From an uncultured Gammaproteobacteria bacterium (GTDB taxonomy: Bacteria > Patescibacteriota > Microgenomatia > UBA8517): a stretch of 64,000 bases of DNA. Positions within the stretch are counted from its first letter, which is position 1; the number at the start of each line of letters is the position of its first letter. The stretch lies in contig CAZPLB010000002.1 in the NCBI GenBank assembly GCA_964587425.1, forward strand, positions 102,053 to 166,052. The letters are read 5' to 3'. Below, piece by piece: positions 1,481 through 9,337 of this stretch. The notes below the pieces were generated by a model that saw nothing but the letters and a program-made list of their open reading frames with translations, was not told the DNA's origin and ran no database searches. The translations under genes and the position numbers were made by a program.

Positions 1481-2785
1481 TTACTTCAATTTAGTTTGAA
1501 GAAAGTTCTCCAACTTGTCAATGGACACTCTCTCTTGTTTTGCAGTATCACGATCTCGAACAGTAACCATATCATCTTTCAAACTGTCAAAGTCAACTGT
1601 TATGCAATATGGTGTTCCAATTTCATCCTGTGCAAAATATCTTTTACCAATGTTTCCTCTGGAATCATAATTAACCATAAATTTCTGTCTCAAGTTTTCG
1701 TAAATTTCATGTGCTTTTTTAGTAAGTTCTTCCTTATTTGCCAAAAGTGGAAAAATTGCAGCTTTATATGCCGCAAGTCTTGGATCCAGTTTCAGATAAA
1801 TCCTCTCCCCATCTTCTTTGTATGAATCAATAAGCAAAAATAAAATTGATCTATCAACCCCTGCAGAGGTTTCAATATCCCATGGTATATATTCCTCATT
1901 TGTAATTGGATCACGGTATTTCATGTTTTTTCCTGAATATTCTCCGTGCCGCCTCAGATCCCAATCTCCCCTGTGGTGTATTCCCATAAACTCACTCCAC
2001 CCCCAAGGAGCCTTGTATTCAATATCTGTTGCCATCTTTGCATAGTGCGCCCTTTCGTCATCTTCATGATCTCGGAACCTTAAATTTTCTTTATCCATCC
2101 CTAGTCCCAAATACCATTTCATTCTCTCTTCCTTCCAATATTCAAACCATTTCTTTCCTTCTTTCTCTTCAGGCTTTATGTAAAACTGCACTTCCATTTG
2201 TTCAAATTCACGGCTCCTGAAAGTAAAGTTTCCCGGAGTTATTTCATTTCGAAATGCCTTACCAACCTGTGCTATTCCAAAAGGAATTTTTACTCGGCTT
2301 GAGTCAACTACGTTTTTAAAGTTCACATGAACTCCATTTGTAATTTCTCCACGAAGAAATATTTCAGATTCTTTTCCTTCAATTATTCCCAAATATGCCT
2401 TCACCAGAAGATTAAATTTCTGGGGTTCAGTCCACTCAACTTTTTTACCCTTGTGAGTTTTTTCGTGCGCTTCAATCTCATCGGGCTTGTCAGAACGATA
2501 CCTTTGGTGACAAATCTTGCATTCAACCAGTGGATCAGTAAATGCTTCCACATGTCCTGATGCCTCCCAAGCTCTGGGGTTCATCATAATTGCAGCGTCA
2601 ACTCCAACTACATCATCACGAAGTTGTACCATTTCCTTCCACCACAAATCCTTCAAGTTTTTCTTGATTAAACTTCCAACTGGACCATAATCCCAAGTTC
2701 CGGCAAGTCCTCCATATATTTCACTTCCTGGAAATATAATTCCGCGTCTTTTACAAAGTGCTACTATTTTTTCCAAAGAAACCAT
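1481..2785 (-). CDS. glyQS: glycine--tRNA ligase (dimeric class II GlyRS)
   Basis: N-terminus KRRGIIFPGSEIYGGLAGTWDYGPVG and class II motif 2 GKAFRNEITPGNFTFRSREFEQME are diagnostic for alpha2-type GlyRS. The 434-aa length fits. Confidence 0.9.
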   Translation of the reverse strand: MVSLEKIVALCKRRGIIFPGSEIYGGLAGTWDYGPVGSLIKKNLKDLWWKEMVQLRDDVVGVDAAIMMNPRAWEASGHVEAFTDPLVECKICHQRYRSDKPDEIEAHEKTHKGKKVEWTEPQKFNLLVKAYLGIIEGKESEIFLRGEITNGVHVNFKNVVDSSRVKIPFGIAQVGKAFRNEITPGNFTFRSREFEQMEVQFYIKPEEKEGKKWFEYWKEERMKWYLGLGMDKENLRFRDHEDDERAHYAKMATDIEYKAPWGWSEFMGIHHRGDWDLRRHGEYSGKNMKYRDPITNEEYIPWDIETSAGVDRSILFLLIDSYKEDGERIYLKLDPRLAAYKAAIFPLLANKEELTKKAHEIYENLRQKFMVNYDSRGNIGKRYFAQDEIGTPYCITVDFDSLKDDMVTVRDRDTAKQERVSIDKLENFLQTKLK

Positions 2786-2835
2786 GTCTAATTATACCTG
2801 AAGTTCATTTAAAGTATATATTTGGGAAATCAAAC

Positions 2836-3678
2836 TCATAAAATATAAATATCTTGTCCATATTCACTTACCCCAACCTTCTCACCCTTTCCTTCAAGAA
2901 TTGATTCAAGCCCTCGGCATGCAAAACATCCTTCTTTTGGACATTTCAAATGATTAATCTTGCGTCCTAAACTTATCCTCTTGGCAACCTCATATACTTT
3001 TTCATATGAATCCTTTAAATCTGGCAATTCCATTTCCTTGAGTCCAGTATCATTGTCCAAGTACCAGTAACTCACTTTTTCAACATTTCGCTTTTGCAAA
3101 TTTTTTGCAAGCAAATAATAGATGGGTAATTGAAGGCTCTCGCCATCCTCTTCATGTTTTCCAGTTTTAAAATCAATAATATGAACTCCATCTGTTTCAT
3201 CGAGGTACTCCACCCAATCAATTTTCCCGCACAAAATTATATTGTCTTCCTCACTCAGCCAATAGTAAGGTAATCCGCTTTCACTTTTTATTTTTATAGC
3301 CTTACTTGAAAGTGGTCCGGGATTATCCATAATTTTCTTTAACATTTTTCTGCCCCTTTCCTTGAATTCTTCCTCCTCTGTTTTCGATCTAAATCCTCCC
3401 TTTTTACCACTTACCTTTTCCCAAGCAGTATCATATTTTTGAAGTACAGTATCATCAAACCTTTCTTCAACGGGCAAAATGGATAGTGATTCAATAATTT
3501 CATGTACTATCATCCCTAATGTTAGGGAAGGTGAGACAATAGTCATCTTGTGTCCTGTCTTTGGATCTTTGTATACATTTCGAAGGTAGTAAAGTCTAGG
3601 GCACTTCAAAAAATCAGCAATTGAAGAATGGGAAACCCAAGTAGCTTTGAATTTGTCTTTTGTAGAACTATCCTGCAT
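2836..3678 (-). CDS. PD-(D/E)XK nuclease, Cas4/RecB-like, with a 4-Cys cluster
   Basis: One N-terminal Cys (FLKCPRLYY) plus a C-terminal CPKEGCFAC cluster. Core D..D/E.K element GKIDWVEYLDETDGVHIIDFKTGK. This is the Cas4/AddB-nuclease-domain architecture, and no cas genes or repeats lie nearby. Confidence 0.6.
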   Translation of the reverse strand: MQDSSTKDKFKATWVSHSSIADFLKCPRLYYLRNVYKDPKTGHKMTIVSPSLTLGMIVHEIIESLSILPVEERFDDTVLQKYDTAWEKVSGKKGGFRSKTEEEEFKERGRKMLKKIMDNPGPLSSKAIKIKSESGLPYYWLSEEDNIILCGKIDWVEYLDETDGVHIIDFKTGKHEEDGESLQLPIYYLLAKNLQKRNVEKVSYWYLDNDTGLKEMELPDLKDSYEKVYEVAKRISLGRKINHLKCPKEGCFACRGLESILEGKGEKVGVSEYGQDIYIL

Positions 3679-4207
3679 TTAGGATCATTATAGCGTAATT
3701 TAGAAGCATGGCAAAACTAACCCAAACAAGATATGGAATCAAAACATATGAAGCCCTCTTATCAACCCATGTAAACTTAACAATCATAATTATAATGGTT
3801 AGCCACAGAAGTACGATTTCATACAAAGCTATGCGCAAATCGTGAAGCCCAAAGAAAAGAAGTGTCCAGAGAAAATTAAGTATTAGATTTAATGTAAAAC
3901 AAATGAGTGCAAACCAACTATGCTTCTTGGCTGTCCAAGTAATGTAAAGCGATACTGCTATTAAAAAGTAGAGAAGTATCCAAATAGATCCAAAAACCCA
4001 ATTAGGAGGAGTAAAACTTGGTTTAATTAAGCTCAAATACCAATTATCAATAAAAGATCTTGCAACTACCACTCCTCCTGCAAGTCCAGTCCCTAATACC
4101 AAACCAAAACTAATGACTAGTTTCAAAAATTTATTGTTGTGCTGTATACCAATCTTCTTCCTTTTTGCCATTAATTCATTATATGTACAAATCTCTACGG
4201 CTTGCAA
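3668..4207 (-). CDS. tspO: TspO/MBR family tryptophan-rich sensory protein
   Basis: 179 aa with 5 predicted TM helices. Motif LIKPSFTPPNWVFGSIWILLYFLIAVSLY matches the TspO signature (KPsw.PP.wvFgpvWtiLY). Confidence 0.6.
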   Translation of the reverse strand: MQAVEICTYNELMAKRKKIGIQHNNKFLKLVISFGLVLGTGLAGGVVVARSFIDNWYLSLIKPSFTPPNWVFGSIWILLYFLIAVSLYITWTAKKHSWFALICFTLNLILNFLWTLLFFGLHDLRIALYEIVLLWLTIIIMIVKFTWVDKRASYVLIPYLVWVSFAMLLNYAIMILNAG

Positions 4208-4710
4208 TTAGGCCAAAAGTTTCGGCCTCGTGTTGCAAGTAAATACGCTGCAGTCTGTACAGATGCCTTTGCATCAAACCTCAAATTAATGTTTATGTCC
4301 TCCCCCATTACTTTTCTGGTATTTTGCCAAGTAACAGGTTCAAACTGATAAAGACCTATGTATGGACCATTTTTGGCATTTGGATTAAATCCACTTTCAC
4401 AAATTGCAATATGGCGAAGTACATTTGGATCAGTTGCATATTGTCCTGCAAAACTTTCAATAAACCCATTAATTTCCTGAGATGTAACAGGAATTGGAGT
4501 TGGAAGAGGTTTGGGAGTAATTGTTGGCAAAGGTATCGGTGCAGGAGTTGGTGTTAAAGAAGGAAGGGGTGTAGCTGTAATTGCAGGCATGGGACTAACC
4601 TCAATTTTTTCAGCCAAGACAACAGGGTTTGGTTTACTGGCCGAATGTAAAATCCCAAGTATCGCAGGAATTAAAGTAGCAGCTATACCTAAAAAGAAAA
4701 ATTTCCTCAA
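4195..4710 (-). CDS. secreted Rpf-like transglycosylase-domain protein with a Pro/Thr-rich linker
   Basis: Signal/TM N-terminus, then a PTPAPIPLPTITPKPLPTPIP low-complexity linker. C-terminal IAICESGFNPNAKNGPYIGLYQFEPVTW resembles the Rpf/transglycosylase-like domain (CESGGNW...GLxQF..tW). Confidence 0.5.
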   Translation of the reverse strand: MRKFFFLGIAATLIPAILGILHSASKPNPVVLAEKIEVSPMPAITATPLPSLTPTPAPIPLPTITPKPLPTPIPVTSQEINGFIESFAGQYATDPNVLRHIAICESGFNPNAKNGPYIGLYQFEPVTWQNTRKVMGEDININLRFDAKASVQTAAYLLATRGRNFWPNCKP

Positions 4711-4711
4711 G

Positions 4712-4909
4712 TTAAGAAACTTTTGCAGCCTCTAGTTCATCTTCCATCTCGTCAACCGGAGTCGCACTCAAATGTTCGCCATCGGTACAGCTGCATTCGG
4801 CCAGTGGTTTTCCGTTTCTTGGACAATCCTCAGTCATACAAACTCCAGGAGTGTCAGAAACTCCTTTGCATTCCAAACAAACATAGTGGGTTTTCTGTAT
4901 TTGTTCCAT
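4712..4909 (-). CDS. small Cys-rich, zinc-ribbon-like protein
   Basis: 65 aa with 7 Cys (CLEC, CMTEDC, ECSC) and an acidic C-tail. Start and stop are tightly coupled to both neighbours (4710/4712 and 4909/4911). Confidence 0.35.
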   Translation of the reverse strand: MEQIQKTHYVCLECKGVSDTPGVCMTEDCPRNGKPLAECSCTDGEHLSATPVDEMEDELEAAKVS

Positions 4910-4910
4910 A

Positions 4911-5309
4911 CTATTCAGATGTTACTCCATCAAACTCTTCAGAATCAAGACTAGCATCTTCTTTAGTTTTATGTATCGTTTTATCCTTATGGTGGGGAGG
5001 CGAGTAAATTGTGTAAAGTTTCAATGATTCAGTATCTGAAGTATTAATAACATTGTGCTGTGCTCCAGCTGGTACAACCACAACATCGCCGCTACGAACA
5101 GGATATTCATTTACATCAACTATCACCTTTCCATTTCCAACTTCAAACCTAAAAAACTGATCATTGTCATTGTGTGTCTCCATTCCAATTTCTTCAAGTG
5201 TTTTTAAAGACATAAGAACTAACTGTGAGTGTTTCGCTGTATAAACTACCTGTCTGAAGTCAGAATTTCCACTAACCAATTCCTCTATATTTGCCTTGAA
5301 ACCCTTCAT
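4911..5309 (-). CDS. cupin domain protein
   Basis: VVVVPAGAQHNVINTSDTESLKLYTIYSPP is a typical cupin_2 beta-barrel motif. 132 aa. Confidence 0.55.
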   Translation of the reverse strand: MKGFKANIEELVSGNSDFRQVVYTAKHSQLVLMSLKTLEEIGMETHNDNDQFFRFEVGNGKVIVDVNEYPVRSGDVVVVPAGAQHNVINTSDTESLKLYTIYSPPHHKDKTIHKTKEDASLDSEEFDGVTSE

Positions 5310-5345
5310 AATTACAATTGATTATGTACCTCCATAAATATCTAG

Positions 5346-6017
5346 TCAAGGTTTTGCATATAAATCCACTCCAAAAGCATTTGATATTCTATCAAACACT
5401 TTCCCTTTATCATCTTTGATATTCTTATCAAAAATAAAAGGGTTTTTATTTTCATCAAATCTATAAATTACAAAAGGGCTACCTTTTGCCTCAGTTCCAG
5501 AAATACACAAGAAACCACCAGGCTTAATTATATTAGATATATTCACCATAATACTTTCAGTCTGTTTATCCCCGAGAGTATTCTGTTGGATAGATTGATA
5601 TAGATTATTCATCAAAAAGACTGCTTCGAAAGTATTTTTTGCAAATGGAGGCCGATATCCATCACCTGCAAAAATTACTGGATCCTTGCCGCCAGTCTGA
5701 TATTGTCGCTCGTCACCTCCTGTAACATCTCCCAATACTCGAGCCACTCTCTCAGCAATACTTCTTTCTTTACTATCAATTAGCATCTGTCTATTTACTT
5801 CTATAGAATAAACTTGGACATTAGATCCGAATATATTTGCTAAATCTTTTGTAGTCTCTCCAGTAGATGACCCCACTTCAAGAATATTCCCATGGGTTAT
5901 TATTTTTCTTAATTTCTCGATATTGCGTCCGAAAGTCTGTTCAACTCTACCAGCCCAAGTCAAAAATTCAGTATGATATCCCTTAGTCTTATCAAACGAA
6001 TATTTTTTATCAGCCAT
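5346..6017 (-). CDS. class I SAM-dependent methyltransferase
   Basis: Glycine-rich motif I ILEVGSSTGETT followed by an acidic motif-II-like stretch. 223 aa. Confidence 0.5.
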   Translation of the reverse strand: MADKKYSFDKTKGYHTEFLTWAGRVEQTFGRNIEKLRKIITHGNILEVGSSTGETTKDLANIFGSNVQVYSIEVNRQMLIDSKERSIAERVARVLGDVTGGDERQYQTGGKDPVIFAGDGYRPPFAKNTFEAVFLMNNLYQSIQQNTLGDKQTESIMVNISNIIKPGGFLCISGTEAKGSPFVIYRFDENKNPFIFDKNIKDDKGKVFDRISNAFGVDLYAKP

Positions 6018-6031
6018 ACTTATCTAAGTTA

Positions 6032-7108
6032 CTATTCCAGTTTCAAACTATCAAGTTCAGGAAGTGACTTCCCAACTACTCCTTGAAAATCTCCATACAA
6101 TCCGTGCGTGTGATCAATCACTTTCCGTATCTCCTTCTCCTGTCTTGCCCACTTGGTATTAAAGTATCTTTTTTCTTTTTCTATATCATCCTGTAACCCT
6201 GAAAATATATCTATAATCCCTTCCACCCTGTTGCGAAATTCTGTACCAGTTATATATTGGTAAAGAATTGTCATTTTTTCATCTTTACCTTCACTTGATT
6301 TTCTTTCATGGTATAAACTGACTAAATTAAAACGCAAACTCCATGCAAGCGGTAAGAAATTCTTCAAGTTACAAATCCACACACCATCTCGGTATGTAAA
6401 ACTATCAATTCCATCAGGCATATGGACGCTCACCAAGACAAGGAGATCAGCTTTTGCCTGTCTTCCATCTTCTTTGAGTTTTGCAATCCATCCATCGGTC
6501 CACTTTGCATTCTTACTTTCCCAAAGAATAACTCCAGTTGACCTCCCCAATTTATCAACAACGATCTGAGTAAGATCAGCTCCACGAACACCTTTCTTAA
6601 CCTCACTAATCTTATCCATTGGAAATTCAGTCTTTAATTTTGTTTCAAGTTCAAGTTCAAGAGACTCACCCTGTGTTTGCTGCGATCCCTGTTGCATCTT
6701 AGTCTTCAAAATTTCAACCTGGGAAAGCGCATCAGCAAGTTTTTTATCCTTCTCCAAATCTTTCAGTTGATGTTCCTCGAGAGCTTTCTTTCTGGTCTCA
6801 ACTTTAATTTTTTCTTCTTCATCAAGAAGCTTCTTCTTCATCTCAATTTCACGCTCCTCATCCTTCTCACGAAGTTTTCGCACCTCCCCCAATAGTTCAT
6901 CAATTTGATCAGTTAATTTCTTACTTCTCTCACGTTCTGCCTCTAAATCCTTACCAGCCTTTTTAGAAAGTTCAATTTTCAAGTTTTCAATTTCCTCTTT
7001 ATGCTTCTCACCTAAATCAGCCGCAACCTTCTCTTGAAGTTCATGAGCAAAAGCCTCAGTCAGTTCAAAATCTTTACTACAATGTGGACACTTAATAGTA
7101 TTTTTCAT
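6032..7108 (-). CDS. DUF2130-like protein: N-terminal zinc ribbon, long coiled coil, C-terminal PD-(D/E)XK-like domain
   Basis: N-terminus IKCPHCSKDFEL. About 150 aa of E/K-rich heptad-like sequence. C-terminus GADLTQIVVD...GVILWESKNAK gives a D...ExK arrangement. It starts 4 nt inside the preceding gene, so it is co-operonic with 7105..7842. Confidence 0.5.
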   Translation of the reverse strand: MKNTIKCPHCSKDFELTEAFAHELQEKVAADLGEKHKEEIENLKIELSKKAGKDLEAERERSKKLTDQIDELLGEVRKLREKDEEREIEMKKKLLDEEEKIKVETRKKALEEHQLKDLEKDKKLADALSQVEILKTKMQQGSQQTQGESLELELETKLKTEFPMDKISEVKKGVRGADLTQIVVDKLGRSTGVILWESKNAKWTDGWIAKLKEDGRQAKADLLVLVSVHMPDGIDSFTYRDGVWICNLKNFLPLAWSLRFNLVSLYHERKSSEGKDEKMTILYQYITGTEFRNRVEGIIDIFSGLQDDIEKEKRYFNTKWARQEKEIRKVIDHTHGLYGDFQGVVGKSLPELDSLKLE

Positions 7109-7842
7109 ACGAGTAAAACTTCTTCTAAATTTTTTAAATCCTTATTTCTAACCTGGATAAGTTTTAAGTCATATTTTTGGTATAACTTAATTTTCTCATC
7201 TTTGCGAATCAAATACTTGTCGTCATTCATCCCCCAATACTCTATATATATTCCAGCTTTTGAACTCGAACTTGGTATATAAAAATCGCAAATAACTACT
7301 TCATTTATTGGCACTTGTTGTTCATATACATGGACTATTTTGTGATCAAAAAGCCAATCATCAATCAAAACTTCAGCATAACTTCTCACAAAATGCCCAT
7401 CTTTAGTTTTATTCTGTGGTGGGTTTGATTTTAGGTATTTCTGATCTGCCGAAGAAAGCCTTTCCTTAGATTTAAACTTTGAAATTAGTTTATCAAACTG
7501 TATAGAGTTTACTTTTGCTTTCGGGAAACCCCTTTTACCATCAAAAAATATGATTCCATCAATTTCCGGTTTCGACAGTGGCCTATACTTTTCTTCCCTT
7601 TTTACTCTAACTTGCCATGGATAAGCACCACCCCAAGCATCCGGTTTTATATCCTTTGCCGAATGCGATATCGCTTCAAAGACACCATGCAAAATTCCAT
7701 CACTGTAATCATATAAAAACAATATATCTCCAGTACTCACATCTTTTACTTGAGAAGTATATCTCTCAGTTCCACCAAATATATTATCTCGTAGACACTC
7801 TTTCTTTGTATATCTTGAACACAAGAATATATATACCGACAT
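7105..7842 (-). CDS. PUA-like (EVE/DCD-type) reader domain fused to a Vsr/DUF559-type endonuclease
   Basis: N-terminal IFLCSRYTKKECLRDNIFGG ... ILFLYDYSDGILHGVFEAIS ... AWGGAYPWQVRVK matches the DCD/EVE (PUA-fold) pattern. C-terminal SYAEVLIDDWLFDHKIVHVYEQQVPINEVVICDFYIPSSSSKAGIYIEYWG...LIQVRNKDL matches the DUF559/Vsr-like restriction-endonuclease-fold signature. Confidence 0.55.
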   Translation of the reverse strand: MSVYIFLCSRYTKKECLRDNIFGGTERYTSQVKDVSTGDILFLYDYSDGILHGVFEAISHSAKDIKPDAWGGAYPWQVRVKREEKYRPLSKPEIDGIIFFDGKRGFPKAKVNSIQFDKLISKFKSKERLSSADQKYLKSNPPQNKTKDGHFVRSYAEVLIDDWLFDHKIVHVYEQQVPINEVVICDFYIPSSSSKAGIYIEYWGMNDDKYLIRKDEKIKLYQKYDLKLIQVRNKDLKNLEEVLLV

Positions 7843-7848
7843 AGCCGT

Positions 7849-8535
7849 TCATTTTACCACTTCAGTTAATCTTTTCTTAGCCACCTCACAATATTTTTCA
7901 TTAATCTCTACCCCAACTCCTTCTCTCTCCAACATCTTGCATACCACCAAAGTTGTTCCACTCCCCATAAAAGGATCAAGAATGAGATCTTCCTCAGTAC
8001 TAAACATCTGTATTAGTCTTCTTGGTATTTCAACAGGGAAAGCTGCAGGGTGCCCTAGTTTCTTTTGACTCTCTCCACTAAACTGCCAAATATTATTCAC
8101 CCATTCTCTGAATTCTGCCTTTACTGGCTTCCACTCACCTTTGTATAAAACAATAATAACTTCAACTGCTTTTGAAAAAGCCATTGAATATTTATTTCGA
8201 ACACTCTGTTTATTCCAAATTATTGTACCTTTGTATCTGAAACCTGCCCTTTTAGCTAACAATGTAATATCAGCGTACAAACTTCTCTTTTCACCCTTTC
8301 CTGTATCAATGGGTACATTAATACAAATCCTTCCATTATCTTTGAGTAATTCAAAACATTTAATAAGCCAGTTCCTACTAAATTCCAAATAATCTTTGTA
8401 ACTTTCATTATCTTTATACACTCCATAATCAATTCCCAAATTGTATGGAGGTGAAGTTATAATTAGATCAACTGAAGAATTTTCAAGTTCTACTTTCAAA
8501 AAATCTTCATTATATATCCTCATATTTTGGGGCAT
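7849..8535 (-). CDS. beta-class amino-DNA methyltransferase (N4-cytosine or N6-adenine), SPPY motif
   Basis: VDLIITSPPYN (motif IV) is followed late by LILDPFMGSGTTLVVC (motif I, FxGxG), which is the beta-class order. I chose the start at MPQNMRIYNEDF (8535) rather than the longer ORF start at 8589. Confidence 0.75.
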   Translation of the reverse strand: MPQNMRIYNEDFLKVELENSSVDLIITSPPYNLGIDYGVYKDNESYKDYLEFSRNWLIKCFELLKDNGRICINVPIDTGKGEKRSLYADITLLAKRAGFRYKGTIIWNKQSVRNKYSMAFSKAVEVIIVLYKGEWKPVKAEFREWVNNIWQFSGESQKKLGHPAAFPVEIPRRLIQMFSTEEDLILDPFMGSGTTLVVCKMLEREGVGVEINEKYCEVAKKRLTEVVK

Positions 8536-8563
8536 TTTACCATTAATCGTGATAAAATAGCGT

Positions 8564-9337
8564 ATGAAAAAGAAACTTGCAGTATTCACGATTATCCCTC
8601 TTCTGATCCTTGGTTTTCTAATTTACAAAAACCAAAAAACTAGCGCCACAAGAACTCTTGGCCAAGAAAATGTTACCAGTGAAATGGAGACCACACCAAA
8701 TGCAGTCTCTTTTACACTAAGCGACCAAGAAATATCAGTCTCCCTTTGGAAGGCAAATCCATGGAATCTAAAGTTAATTCCAAACTTCATCAAAAAACAA
8801 GGATCAAAAGAATTTGGGATAACAAGTTCCTGTAAATATCTTGCAAACGCAGGGTTTTACTCCAAAGAAAACAATCCTATTGGCCTTTTCATAACAAATG
8901 GGGAAACTATTGGTAAATGGCAGGAAAATAATCTCCTCGATGGAATACTCACCGTAAACGAATTGATGACACCAAGAATTACAAGAGTAGTTCCAAGAGA
9001 CTCATTAAATATTGCAGTTCAAACTGGACCGATAATAAAAGAAAATGGTTCATTCATTACTCTTAAAATAATGAATGACAGTTTAGACAGACGATCTGTA
9101 GCAGGTATTACTGGAGAAAATGAATTATATTTTCTGAGTTTTTATGAACCCAATTCAAATTACTCAGGTCCCTTACTTGCAGATCTTCCAACTGCGCTAA
9201 AAACGTTTGAGGAAAAAACTGGAATAGTGTTTGCAGATGCAATTAATCTTGATGGCGGTTCTGCATCAGTTTTCAAAAACAATAATACAAGCTTGGAAGA
9301 GATTACCCCTGTCGGAGCATTCTTTTGCCAACTCTAA
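8564..9337 (+). CDS. phosphodiester glycosidase family protein (NAGPA-like, DUF2233-type), membrane-anchored
   Basis: N-terminal TM. Motifs NAGFYSKENNPIGLFITNGE, ITGENELYFLSF and ADAINLDGGSASV match the family (NLDGGGS). Confidence 0.55.
   Translation: MKKKLAVFTIIPLLILGFLIYKNQKTSATRTLGQENVTSEMETTPNAVSFTLSDQEISVSLWKANPWNLKLIPNFIKKQGSKEFGITSSCKYLANAGFYSKENNPIGLFITNGETIGKWQENNLLDGILTVNELMTPRITRVVPRDSLNIAVQTGPIIKENGSFITLKIMNDSLDRRSVAGITGENELYFLSFYEPNSNYSGPLLADLPTALKTFEEKTGIVFADAINLDGGSASVFKNNNTSLEEITPVGAFFCQL

What the first reader, a model, noticed from the sequence alone, without database searches (positions are those of the whole stretch)
6032..7842. DUF2130-like protein (Zn ribbon, coiled coil, PD-(D/E)XK) overlapping and co-transcribed with the EVE-nuclease
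The 358-aa ORF starts with CPHCSKDFEL, carries about 150 aa of Glu/Lys-rich coiled coil, and ends in a domain with a D...ExK arrangement (GADL...ILWESKNAK). Its start codon lies 4 nt inside the stop region of the EVE-nuclease gene, so MTase, EVE-nuclease and DUF2130 form a three-gene module. A coiled-coil spacer between a DNA-binding zinc ribbon and a nuclease domain recalls SMC/Rad50-like or abortive-infection effectors. The module could be a composite defense system with two different nucleases under one methyltransferase.
Basis: partly seen in the sequence, partly recalled or inferred. Interest (0 to 1): 0.6.

Follow-up and report, generated by a model that had tools for sequence, protein, structure and literature searches.

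The report
Stand-alone DUF2130 nuclease beside swapped restriction genes
The gene is a real member of the uncharacterised DUF2130 family (a zinc-binding tip, a long helix and a DNA-cutting domain), but it is a conserved single-gene unit, and the restriction gene that overlaps it is variable cargo, so there is no three-gene defence module.

Summary
The sequence observation holds. Window 6032-7108 (-) encodes a 358-aa DUF2130 protein (Pfam E=1.4e-56). It has an N-terminal CxxC knuckle, a 124-residue charged helix and a PD-(D/E)XK core with invariant D178, E197 and K199. Its ATG overlaps the stop of the DCD(EVE-like)-nuclease gene by 4 nt.

The three-gene module is not supported.
- The DCD-nuclease is absent from all 167 related loci examined.
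- Its four full-length homologues stand alone, without an MTase or DUF2130.
- DNA homology with the closest syntenic relative breaks exactly at the DUF2130 start codon. That relative carries five different genes in the same gap.
- No DNA methylase ranks among the 25 commonest families of 140 immediate neighbours of DUF2130 in 77 species.
- 4-nt overlaps join 15 of 48 co-directional gene pairs in this window.

DUF2130 is about as conserved as GlyRS (63-79% identity) and sits among housekeeping genes. The simplest order is RecO-DUF2130-GlyRS.

Two observations keep a defence role open. The orthologous MTase directly abuts DUF2130 in two sister genomes. OLD-type ATPase or Bro-N genes lie immediately upstream in about 10 of 77 loci.

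Most likely it is an autonomous coiled-coil nuclease with RmuC-like architecture. Its biological role is unproven.

The parts
6032..7108 (-). DUF2130 gene (358 aa), the unit under study
   Evidence: ORF. PF09903 at 192 bits against a cut-off of 26.7. 1912 homologues at E<=0.001 among the candidates scored, the 119 nearest listed being 63-75% identical. 4167 clusters at 50% identity with E<=1e-3.
7031..7099 (-). N-terminal zinc knuckle, residues 4-26: C7 (7088-7090), C10 (7079-7081), H22, E26
   Evidence: C7, C10 and H22 are invariant and E26 is >=90% conserved in 40 sequences. The model shows a beta-hairpin at 5-14 followed by a helix. Weak matches to a consensus C2H2 finger (1mey) and to zf-C2H2_DHX34 at E=0.003, below cut-off. 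Among 150 cluster representatives the CxxC is in 140 and the His in only 41. Zinc binding is inferred, not shown.
6692..7063 (-). Long charged alpha-helix, residues 16-139 (coiled coil or single alpha-helix)
   Evidence: One continuous helix in the AlphaFold model, pLDDT 73-85. 40% E+K and 52% charged. Its length varies across the family. Members of 520-692 aa have no extra Pfam domain; their DUF2130 match simply starts 160-430 residues in.
6293..6682 (-). PD-(D/E)XK nuclease core, residues 143-272: E148/E151 in helix 1, D178 (6575-6577), E197 (6518-6520), K199 (6512-6514)
   Evidence: These residues are invariant. The model has alpha-beta-beta-beta-alpha-beta topology with D178 at the start of strand 2 and E197-x-K199 in strand 3. 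Most top-ranked Foldseek PDB hits are PD-(D/E)XK nucleases (HindIII, Hjc, BstEII, McrC, Bax1, MspJI, NucS, RecU) at probability up to 0.98, but with E>=8e-3. The family is listed as PD-(D/E)XK in PMC3424549.
6074..6286 (-). C-terminal helical region, residues 275-345, with the invariant basic block EKRxFxxKWARQEKEIRKVIDHTHG
   Evidence: It lies within the PF09903 match. Its function is unknown. DNA binding, or packing against the long helix, is inferred.
7105..7108 (-). ATGA: the DUF2130 start codon overlaps the stop codon of the DCD-nuclease gene
   Evidence: This is also the exact point where DNA homology with the syntenic relative L001 ends (window 7109 = L001 6000).
7105..7842 (-). DCD(EVE-like)-PD-(D/E)XK nuclease gene: a neighbour and variable cargo, not part of the DUF2130 unit
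   Evidence: PF10539. PADLOC PDC-S69 and HEAT_CxxC_PDDEXK on residues 118-244. Only 4 full-length homologues at 42-45% identity, all stand-alone. 0 hits in 167 related loci.
7849..8589 (-). Beta-class N6_N4 DNA methyltransferase (SPPY motif before FMGSGTT), resident in this sub-lineage
   Evidence: PF01555 at E=1.7e-51. PADLOC MTase_II at E=2.6e-72. Orthologues at 63-66% identity in the same position in L001, L098 and L144.
5346..6017 (-). Small-molecule-type SAM methyltransferase-like gene, 14 nt downstream of DUF2130, also variable
   Evidence: Methyltransf_25 and Methyltransf_11. 0 hits in 167 related loci.

Best explanation
The DUF2130 gene is an autonomous single-gene unit and is mostly inherited vertically.

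The protein has three parts:
- a Cys-x2-Cys zinc knuckle at the N-terminal tip;
- a long charged helix of variable length, which most likely pairs with the same helix of a second chain;
- a catalytically intact PD-(D/E)XK nuclease head, followed by a conserved basic helix.

Inferred mechanism. It works as a homo-oligomer. The helix acts as a spacer and dimerisation rod. The zinc knuckles sit together at the far end. They either bind DNA like a C2H2 finger or clamp the two chains through shared zinc, as in the Rad50 hook. The heads cut DNA using Mg2+.

Inferred role. It acts in chromosome maintenance or recombination, in the manner proposed for RmuC, more likely than in phage defence. It does not depend on the neighbouring MTase or DCD-nuclease.

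In this genome a methyltransferase, and later a modification-reading DCD-nuclease, were inserted between RecO and DUF2130. The 4-nt overlap is a by-product of the compact genome.

Shown: family membership, motif conservation, fold class, and absence of a conserved three-gene linkage. Inferred: zinc binding, oligomeric state, substrate and biological role.
For: Family and catalytic residues.

Conservation matches housekeeping neighbours. Window against L001 gives DUF2130 75%, GlyRS 73%, PDDEXK_1 67%, RecO 63% and MTase 63.5%. Window against L098 gives 69%, 81%, 70%, 65% and 65%.

The neighbourhood is housekeeping:
- RecO-DUF2130-GlyRS is contiguous in L066 and L075 and in L179, with gaps of 4 and 14 nt.
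- Obg-DUF2130-Dus in L003-L009.
- FtsZ-x-DUF2130-MsrA-IleRS in L177 and L178.
- The commonest families among second neighbours are housekeeping.

There is no common partner. The most frequent Pfam family among 140 immediate neighbours reaches only 5.

The DCD-nuclease is cargo.

Overlaps are the norm in this window.

On the plasmids and the prophage inspected the gene lies beside ParA, relaxase or small hypothetical genes, with no adjacent DNA methylase or restriction gene.

The architecture of an N-terminal CxxC, a helix of variable length and a nuclease head holds across the family.
Against: - No DUF2130 protein has been characterised. Four papers mention the family and none addresses function.
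- No sequence similarity to E. coli RmuC was detected: hhalign probability 0.1%, BLAST E=0.52. 'RmuC-like' therefore refers to architecture only.
- The Foldseek E-values are weak (>=8e-3).
- Signs of mobility or defence exist. About 10 of 77 loci have an OLD-type ATPase, an AAA_13 ATPase or a Bro-N gene immediately upstream, at -4 to +10 nt for most of them (L086 is 227 nt). These families do not appear among the listed second-neighbour families.
- Family members occur on 46 plasmids and 7 prophages.
- L144 carries a 37%-identical DUF2130 in the same slot, between 64-78%-identical flanks.
- Most GlyRS-anchored relatives have RecO directly next to GlyRS, with no DUF2130 within 4-10 kb upstream.
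- The orthologous MTase directly abuts DUF2130 in L098 and L144.
Confidence: 0.5

Rival explanations
1. DUF2130 is a stand-alone anti-phage or anti-plasmid nuclease. Its logic would resemble ShdA of the Shield system (coiled coil plus RmuC-type nuclease, active alone, sometimes modulated by neighbours). Other defence genes tend to settle directly next to it.
For: - Shield precedent: ShdA alone protects, degrades DNA in vitro, and is found inside type I R-M loci (PMC10270631; PMC11090510).
- Defence-type genes lie immediately upstream on the same strand: OLD-family AAA_15+TOPRIM in L057 and L077, AAA_15 without a detected TOPRIM in L010 and L063, AAA_13 in L014, and Bro-N in five loci. RhuM genes lie mostly just downstream. 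None of these families appears among the listed second-neighbour families.
- R-M cargo sits upstream in the window and in L001.
- Homologues occur on conjugative plasmids and Helicobacter prophages.
- In-situ replacement by a distant homologue in L144.
- Two copies in two genomes (L028/L086 and L029/L085).
Against: - No PADLOC, PHROGs or NCBIfam model matches it.
- 63-79% identity across Woesebacteria, comparable to GlyRS, is atypical for defence genes.
- More than 80% of loci have only housekeeping neighbours.
- Unlike ShdA and RmuC it has no N-terminal membrane helix (read from the sequence) and no PF02646 match.
Confidence: 0.25
2. In this sub-lineage DUF2130 is functionally coupled to the upstream beta-class MTase. 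This would be a two-gene restriction-modification-like pair. The DCD-nuclease in the window, and other genes in L001, were inserted between the two partners.
For: - The orthologous MTase (63-66% identity) lies upstream of DUF2130 in all four genomes of the sub-lineage. It is directly adjacent in L098 (10-nt gap) and in L144 (4-nt overlap).
- The adjacency survived replacement of DUF2130 by a 37%-identical homologue in L144.
- One further adjacent N6_N4 MTase occurs in L046, but in divergent orientation.
Against: - Outside this sub-lineage DUF2130 has no MTase neighbour. None appears in the listed top 25 families of 140 immediate neighbours. tblastn finds one adjacent case (L046) and three distant or partial hits among the 80 species loci.
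- Close relatives L179, L066 and L075 have RecO-DUF2130-GlyRS with no MTase.
- A true restriction enzyme without its methylase would be lethal, yet most family members lack one.
- The adjacency traces to a single ancestral event and may be chance.
Confidence: 0.1
3. One reading: MTase, DCD/EVE-nuclease and DUF2130 form one composite defence system, with two nucleases under one methyltransferase.
For: - The three genes are on the same strand, with gaps of 6 nt and -4 nt.
- No terminator-like site lies between them.
- All three have plausible DNA-directed activities.
Against: - The trio occurs nowhere else. The DCD-nuclease has 0 hits in 167 related loci.
- Its four full-length homologues are solitary, with no MTase or DUF2130 nearby.
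- Homology with L001 breaks exactly at the DUF2130 ATG, and L001 has five other genes in the gap.
- In L001 DUF2130 follows a divergently oriented Vsr/C5-MTase pair, after a 101-nt spacer.
- The whole region is one co-directional, overlapping gene array.
- DCD/EVE-nuclease fusions are understood as modification-dependent enzymes that need no cognate methylase (PMC7641849).
Confidence: 0.05

Closest known systems
DUF2130 (Pfam PF09903; COG4487), PD-(D/E)XK superfamily
   Same: Full-length match at 192 bits. The catalytic D...ExK, the N-terminal CxxC and the long helix are shared across the family.
   Different: Nothing is atypical. This is an ordinary member of the Woesebacteria clade. That clade adds an invariant His (H22) and a near-invariant Glu (E26) after the CxxC. 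The family itself has no known function.
RmuC (PF02646; E. coli YigN, 'recombination limiting protein')
   Same: Same overall plan: an N-terminal long coiled coil followed by a PD-(D/E)XK domain and C-terminal helices. A conserved G-E...L-E helix precedes the D and (D/E)xK strands in both (visible in the non-significant alignment). Both are single-gene units of uncertain role.
   Different: No detectable sequence relationship here (hhalign probability 0.1%) and no PF02646 match even at E<=10. From memory, RmuC has an N-terminal membrane-type helix. DUF2130 instead begins with a hydrophilic CxxC knuckle.
ShdA of the Shield anti-phage system (PMC10270631)
   Same: A coiled coil plus a PD-(D/E)XK-type nuclease. 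ShdA acts alone, sits next to or inside R-M loci, and has variable accessory neighbours.
   Different: ShdA is membrane-bound, carries an RmuC domain and is specific to Pseudomonas. The window protein has no membrane segment, no RmuC match and no PADLOC hit.
Rad50/SbcC zinc hook
   Same: A single CxxC per chain at the far end of a long helix, away from the DNA-processing head. The family keeps this CxxC while the helix length varies widely, with the DUF2130 match starting 115-430 residues into the protein.
   Different: No ABC ATPase head. The CxxC is at the N-terminus of one helix, not at the apex of an antiparallel hairpin. Shared zinc between chains is only an inference. In this clade H22 and E26 could complete a site within one chain.
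DCD/EVE-nuclease fusions, modification-dependent (type IV-like) restriction (Bell et al. 2020, PMC7641849)
   Same: This describes the upstream neighbour at 7105-7842. It is a DCD domain fused to a PD-(D/E)XK nuclease, an architecture reported in that paper.
   Different: It concerns the neighbour, not DUF2130. That paper does not contain the term DUF2130 (it was not among the four hits).

Membership tests
DUF2130 (PF09903) | Score above the Pfam gathering threshold over the whole domain | tested here: met
   192.1 bits against a cut-off of 26.7. Profile positions 3-253 of 255 are matched.
PD-(D/E)XK nuclease superfamily | Conserved acidic residue at the start of strand 2 and (D/E)xK in strand 3, plus a Glu in helix 1 | tested here: met
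   D178, E197, K199, E148 and E151 are invariant in 40 sequences. Their positions in the model's strands and helix are as expected.
PD-(D/E)XK nuclease superfamily | Restriction-endonuclease-like alpha-beta-beta-beta-alpha-beta fold | tested here: inconclusive
PD-(D/E)XK nuclease superfamily | Metal-dependent phosphodiester cleavage | not testable with these tools
   Needs biochemistry.
Zinc ribbon | Two Cys/His knuckles (four ligands) on two beta-hairpins | tested here: not met
   There is only one CxxC. The other conserved candidate ligands are H22 and E26 on the helix. Zn_ribbon_4 scores 13 bits against a cut-off of 30.
C2H2-type zinc finger | C-x2-4-C-x12-H-x3-5-H on a beta-beta-alpha unit | tested here: inconclusive
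   The spacing is C-x2-C-x11-H-x3-E, with Glu in place of the last His. The model shows a beta-hairpin plus a helix. Matches are sub-threshold: 1mey at E=0.1 and zf-C2H2_DHX34 at 17.9 bits against 27. The His is absent from most of the wider family.
RmuC (PF02646) | Sequence or profile match to the RmuC domain | tested here: not met
   No PF02646 hit at E<=10. hhalign against E. coli RmuC gives probability 0.1%. BLASTP gives E=0.52. The profiles were shallow, so a distant relationship within the superfamily is not excluded.
Shield (ShdA) | N-terminal membrane anchor plus an RmuC domain | tested here: not met
   The N-terminus is hydrophilic (MKNTIKCPHCSKDFELTEAF). No RmuC match. No PADLOC hit.
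SMC/Rad50-like | ABC-type ATPase head flanking the coiled coil | tested here: not met
   No SMC_N or AAA_23 match. Only PF09903 is found.
Type II restriction-modification pair (DUF2130 as the restriction enzyme) | Consistent adjacency of the nuclease to a cognate DNA methyltransferase across the family | tested here: not met
   No DNA methylase among the listed top 25 families of 140 immediate neighbours. Adjacency is seen only in the window's sub-lineage (L098, L144) and in L046.
Three-gene composite system (MTase + DCD-nuclease + DUF2130) | Co-occurrence of the three genes in other genomes | tested here: not met
   The DCD-nuclease has 0 hits in 87 + 80 loci. Its homologues are solitary.
Known anti-phage defence systems (PADLOC-DB v2.0.0) | Match to any defence-system protein model | tested here: not met
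   0 families at E<=0.01 for DUF2130.

The most novel reading that the evidence does not exclude
DUF2130 could be an unrecognised, very widespread family of zinc-capped coiled-coil effector nucleases (more than 4,000 clusters at 50% identity) used in nucleic-acid surveillance. It would act alone or be coupled to interchangeable upstream partners: an OLD-type or AAA_13 ATPase, a Bro-N DNA-binder, or, in this lineage, a DNA methyltransferase. The conserved single CxxC at the tip of a helix of variable length would act as a Rad50-hook-like zinc bridge between chains. The window's lineage, where the MTase directly abuts DUF2130 in sister genomes even after the nuclease was replaced by a distant homologue, would then be a new kind of methylation-linked system.
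Probability: 0.2. Interest if true: 0.65.

Novelty: new member of a known kind. Interest (0 to 1): 0.3.

Why it matters
As stated, a composite defence system with two nucleases under one methyltransferase, the finding does not hold and is of low interest. The gene is an ordinary member of a catalogued family, and the overlap reflects genome compaction.

What remains worthwhile is the family itself. DUF2130 is large, strongly conserved in reduced-genome Patescibacteria, catalytically intact and entirely uncharacterised. The family-wide pattern of a single CxxC at the tip of a helix of variable length suggests a testable structural idea: a zinc-mediated bridge or DNA clamp placed far from the nuclease head.

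The comparative data also show how restriction cargo turns over at one fixed chromosomal slot in these genomes. Homology with the closest relative ends at the DUF2130 start codon.

Tried and rejected
- A sequence search of the PDB with the family profile found no solved relative. Only a sub-threshold match of the N-terminus to a consensus zinc finger appeared.
- NCBIfam, PHROGs and PADLOC gave no hit for DUF2130.
- Literature searches for DUF2130, COG4487 and PF09903 gave only catalogue mentions.
- Homology to RmuC, tested by hhalign and BLASTP, was negative. I therefore use RmuC only as an architectural analogue.
- Domain fusions were sought in the ten longest of the 150 listed family representatives as a functional clue. 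None was found, only a longer N-terminal region.
- The promoter and terminator scan was uninformative. Counts were below the shuffled expectation.
- I first took DUF2130 to be a fixed core gene flanking an insertion hotspot. I softened this after the GlyRS-anchored survey showed most relatives have RecO directly next to GlyRS with no DUF2130 nearby, and after finding the replaced copy in L144.
- The viral contig scan found one distant match only.
- I ran no further search on the MTase, because only one context look-up remained to follow it up.
Full report
OBSERVATION

The minus strand of the window carries a tight array of genes:
- 7849-8589, 246 aa;
- 7105-7842, 245 aa;
- 6032-7108, 358 aa;
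- 5346-6017, 223 aa.

Reading the sequence confirms that the ATG of the 358-aa ORF (7108-7106) overlaps the TGA of the upstream ORF (7107-7105).

Pfam assigns the genes as follows:
- the 358-aa protein is PF09903 DUF2130 (E=1.4e-56, residues 115-358);
- the 245-aa protein has an N-terminal DCD domain (PF10539, an EVE-like modified-base reader);
- the 246-aa protein is an N6_N4 DNA methylase;
- the 223-aa protein is a generic SAM methyltransferase.

The C-terminal half of the DCD protein matches the nuclease parts of PADLOC PDC-S69 and HEAT_CxxC_PD-DEXK. DUF2130 matches nothing in PADLOC, NCBIfam or PHROGs.

ANATOMY OF THE PROTEIN

An alignment with 39 homologues of 63-76% identity shows these residues invariant: C7, C10, H22, D178, E197 and K199, plus a run of Glu residues (E148, E151, E153, E155). 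E26 is nearly invariant.

The AlphaFold model (mean pLDDT 78.5) has four parts:
- a beta-hairpin at residues 5-14;
- one uninterrupted helix at 16-139;
- an alpha-beta-beta-beta-alpha-beta core at 143-272, with D178 at the start of the second strand and E197-x-K199 in the third;
- a further long helix at 289-345.

A separate model of the C-terminal domain gives the same core.

Foldseek against the PDB finds no match below E=1e-3. Most top-ranked hits for both models are nonetheless PD-(D/E)XK nucleases: HindIII, Hjc, BstEII, McrC, Bax1, MspJI, NucS/EndoMS, RecU and BamHI, with probabilities up to 0.98. A non-nuclease entry, Rep15:Rab3B, also recurs among them. Steczkiewicz et al. list DUF2130/COG4487 in the superfamily with function unknown (PMC3424549). 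I accept the nuclease assignment.

The 'zinc ribbon' is not one. There is a single CxxC, followed by H22 and E26 on the helix. This is C2H2-finger spacing with Glu in the last position. It has only sub-threshold matches to zinc-finger profiles. Among 150 representatives of 50%-identity clusters, 140 keep an N-terminal CxxC and only 41 keep the His.

The ten longest of those representatives (520-692 aa) have no additional Pfam domain. Their DUF2130 match simply starts much further in, at residues 160-430, which implies a longer helical region.

The family signature is therefore one CxxC at the tip, a helix of variable length, and a nuclease head. With one Cys pair per chain, a zinc site shared between two chains, as in the Rad50 hook, is a reasonable inference. 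It is only an inference.

The helix is 40% Glu+Lys and 52% charged. Whether it forms a coiled coil or a single stable helix is not resolved.

IS THERE A THREE-GENE MODULE?

Five lines of evidence say no.

1. Conservation. DUF2130 has 1912 homologues at E<=0.001 among the candidates scored. The 119 nearest listed are 63-75% identical and those with names come from Woesebacteria or Patescibacteria. There are 4167 clusters at 50% identity with E<=1e-3. The DCD-nuclease has only four full-length homologues, at 42-45% identity.

2. The DCD-nuclease stands alone elsewhere. Those four homologues sit among unrelated metabolic genes, with no methylase and no DUF2130 nearby. This fits the published view of DCD/EVE-nuclease fusions as modification-dependent enzymes (PMC7641849).

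3. It is absent from related loci. I collected 80 species-level genome loci and 7 contig loci, all anchored on DUF2130. tblastn with the DCD-nuclease found none. The MTase gave one strong hit (L001), one adjacent but divergently oriented hit (L046) and three distant or partial ones.

4. The slot is swapped in the closest relative. L001, whose DUF2130 is 75% identical, has the order DUF4012-NUDIX-RecO-NAGPA-MTase...DUF2130...PDDEXK_1-LytR-GlyRS. Between its MTase and DUF2130 lie five different genes: two small unknowns, a PDDEXK_5 protein, a C5 methylase and Vsr. DNA homology ends exactly at the DUF2130 start codon, at window 7109 = L001 6000.

5. No recurrent partner. Among 140 immediate neighbours in 77 loci the commonest Pfam family reaches only 5 members. 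No DNA methylase appears in the listed top 25, where the least frequent families have 2 members.

The 4-nt overlap carries no weight. In this window 15 of 48 co-directional neighbour pairs overlap by 4 nt, and the median gap is -4.

WHERE THE GENE NORMALLY SITS

The contexts found are:
- L066, L075 and L179: NTP-transferase/Bac_transf-DUF4012-RecO-DUF2130-GlyRS. In L179 the gaps on either side of DUF2130 are 4 and 14 nt. This is the window's own order without the insertions.
- L003-L009: Obg-DUF2130-Dus.
- L177 and L178: FtsZ-x-DUF2130-MsrA-IleRS.

The commonest families among second neighbours are housekeeping.

Identity to the window tracks the flanking core genes. In L001 DUF2130 is 75% against GlyRS 73% and RecO 63%. 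In L098 it is 69% against 81% and 65%.

This pattern is what one expects of a conserved, mostly vertically inherited single-gene function. The recurring RecO adjacency, together with the architecture, points to DNA recombination or maintenance, in the manner proposed for RmuC.

I could not show homology to RmuC. The comparison is one of design, not of family.

WHAT KEEPS A DEFENCE ROLE OPEN

- A GlyRS-anchored survey of metagenome contigs shows that most relatives have DUF4012-RecO-GlyRS contiguous, with no DUF2130 in the 4-10 kb upstream. DUF2130 at this junction is confined to one sub-lineage.
- Within that sub-lineage the orthologous MTase (65-66% identity) is directly followed by DUF2130. 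The gap is 10 nt in L098, and the genes overlap by 4 nt in L144.
- The L144 copy is only 37% identical to the window's, while its flanks are 64-78% identical. This is an in-situ replacement by a distant family member.
- In about 10 of 77 loci a defence- or mobilome-type gene lies immediately upstream on the same strand, mostly at -4 to +10 nt. These are OLD-type AAA_15 ATPases (L010, L057, L063, L077, with a TOPRIM domain detected in L057 and L077), an AAA_13 ATPase (L014), and Bro-N (L028, L031, L045, L048, and L086 at 227 nt). RhuM genes lie mostly just downstream. None of these families appears among the listed second-neighbour families.
- Family members occur on 46 plasmids, mostly rhizobial, and in 7 Helicobacter heilmannii prophages. 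In the three records inspected the gene lies beside ParA, relaxase or small hypothetical genes, with no adjacent DNA methylase or restriction gene.
- The Shield system gives a precedent. ShdA is a coiled-coil RmuC-type nuclease that defends alone and is found inside type I R-M loci (PMC10270631, PMC11090510).

I therefore keep two rivals: a stand-alone defence nuclease at 0.25, and a lineage-specific MTase-DUF2130 pair at 0.10. The three-gene composite falls to about 0.05.

VERDICT

The sequence features are confirmed, with the zinc ribbon corrected to a single knuckle. The protein is an ordinary member of a known but uncharacterised nuclease family. The proposed composite module is not supported, because the overlapping DCD-nuclease is variable cargo in a slot that turns over.

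The best reading is an autonomous, oligomeric, zinc-capped helical nuclease that acts on DNA, with a maintenance or recombination role more likely than defence. Its substrate and role are unproven.

Novelty: new member of a known kind. Interest: 0.3. The interest lies in the uncharacterised family and its hook-like design, not in the module.

Noticed in passing
window 7105-7842 (-); L088-L092: The DCD(EVE-like)-PD-(D/E)XK fusion is rare. It has only four full-length homologues (42-45% identity), and all are solitary genes among metabolic genes. Its C-terminal nuclease domain alone is shared with about 30 roughly 300-aa proteins, many carrying a phage antirepressor KilAC (PF03374) domain; the named ones are from Bacteroidota.
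   Followed up: partly
L098 4948-6700; L144 2951-4737: In two sister genomes the orthologous N6_N4 MTase is directly followed by DUF2130 (10-nt gap in L098, 4-nt overlap in L144) with no other nuclease between them. The L144 copy is a distant family member (37% identity) sitting between 64-78%-identical flanks, which indicates in-situ replacement.
   Followed up: partly
L097-L176 (GlyRS-anchored loci); window 2785-9303: The RecO|GlyRS junction is a variable spot. In most relatives the two genes are contiguous. In the window's sub-lineage up to 6.5 kb of assorted genes lies between them: NAGPA, MTase, DCD-nuclease, DUF2130, a SAM methyltransferase, a cupin, TspO-like and PDDEXK_1.
   Followed up: partly
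L010, L057, L063, L077, L014 (gene ending just before about 6000 in each locus): OLD-type AAA_15 ATPases (TOPRIM detected in L057 and L077) or an AAA_13 ATPase lie immediately upstream of DUF2130, on the same strand, at -4 to +10 nt. The DUF2130 copies involved range from 43% to 70% identity to the window's. This may be a recurrent two-gene pairing.
   Followed up: partly
L028, L031, L045, L048, L086: A roughly 150-aa Bro-N domain protein lies 1-2 nt upstream of DUF2130 in four of these loci (227 nt in L086). RhuM or LysM genes lie just downstream. Two of the loci (L028 and L086) come from the same genome, so the pair may be a duplicated or mobile cassette.
   Followed up: no
window 7849-8589 (-): The MTase has motif IV as SPPY ahead of motif I (FMGSGTT), which is the beta-class order. 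From memory, SPPY is typical of N4-cytosine methylases. If so, its product need not be the base read by the adjacent DCD domain.
   Followed up: no
window 2836-3678 (-); 9 of 87 DUF2130 loci: A 280-aa PDDEXK_1 (Cas4/AddB-like) nuclease with a C-terminal Cys cluster (CPKEGCFAC) lies within 6 kb of DUF2130 in nine loci, at 52-67% identity. This may be synteny or a second recombination nuclease of the region.
   Followed up: no
NC_002679.1 (L093), NZ_CP046073.1 (L094), BK070126.1 (L095): DUF2130 homologues occur on rhizobial conjugative plasmids next to ParA and relaxase genes, on a Sulfurimonas plasmid, and in Helicobacter heilmannii prophages. In each case no DNA methylase or restriction gene is adjacent.
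   Followed up: partly
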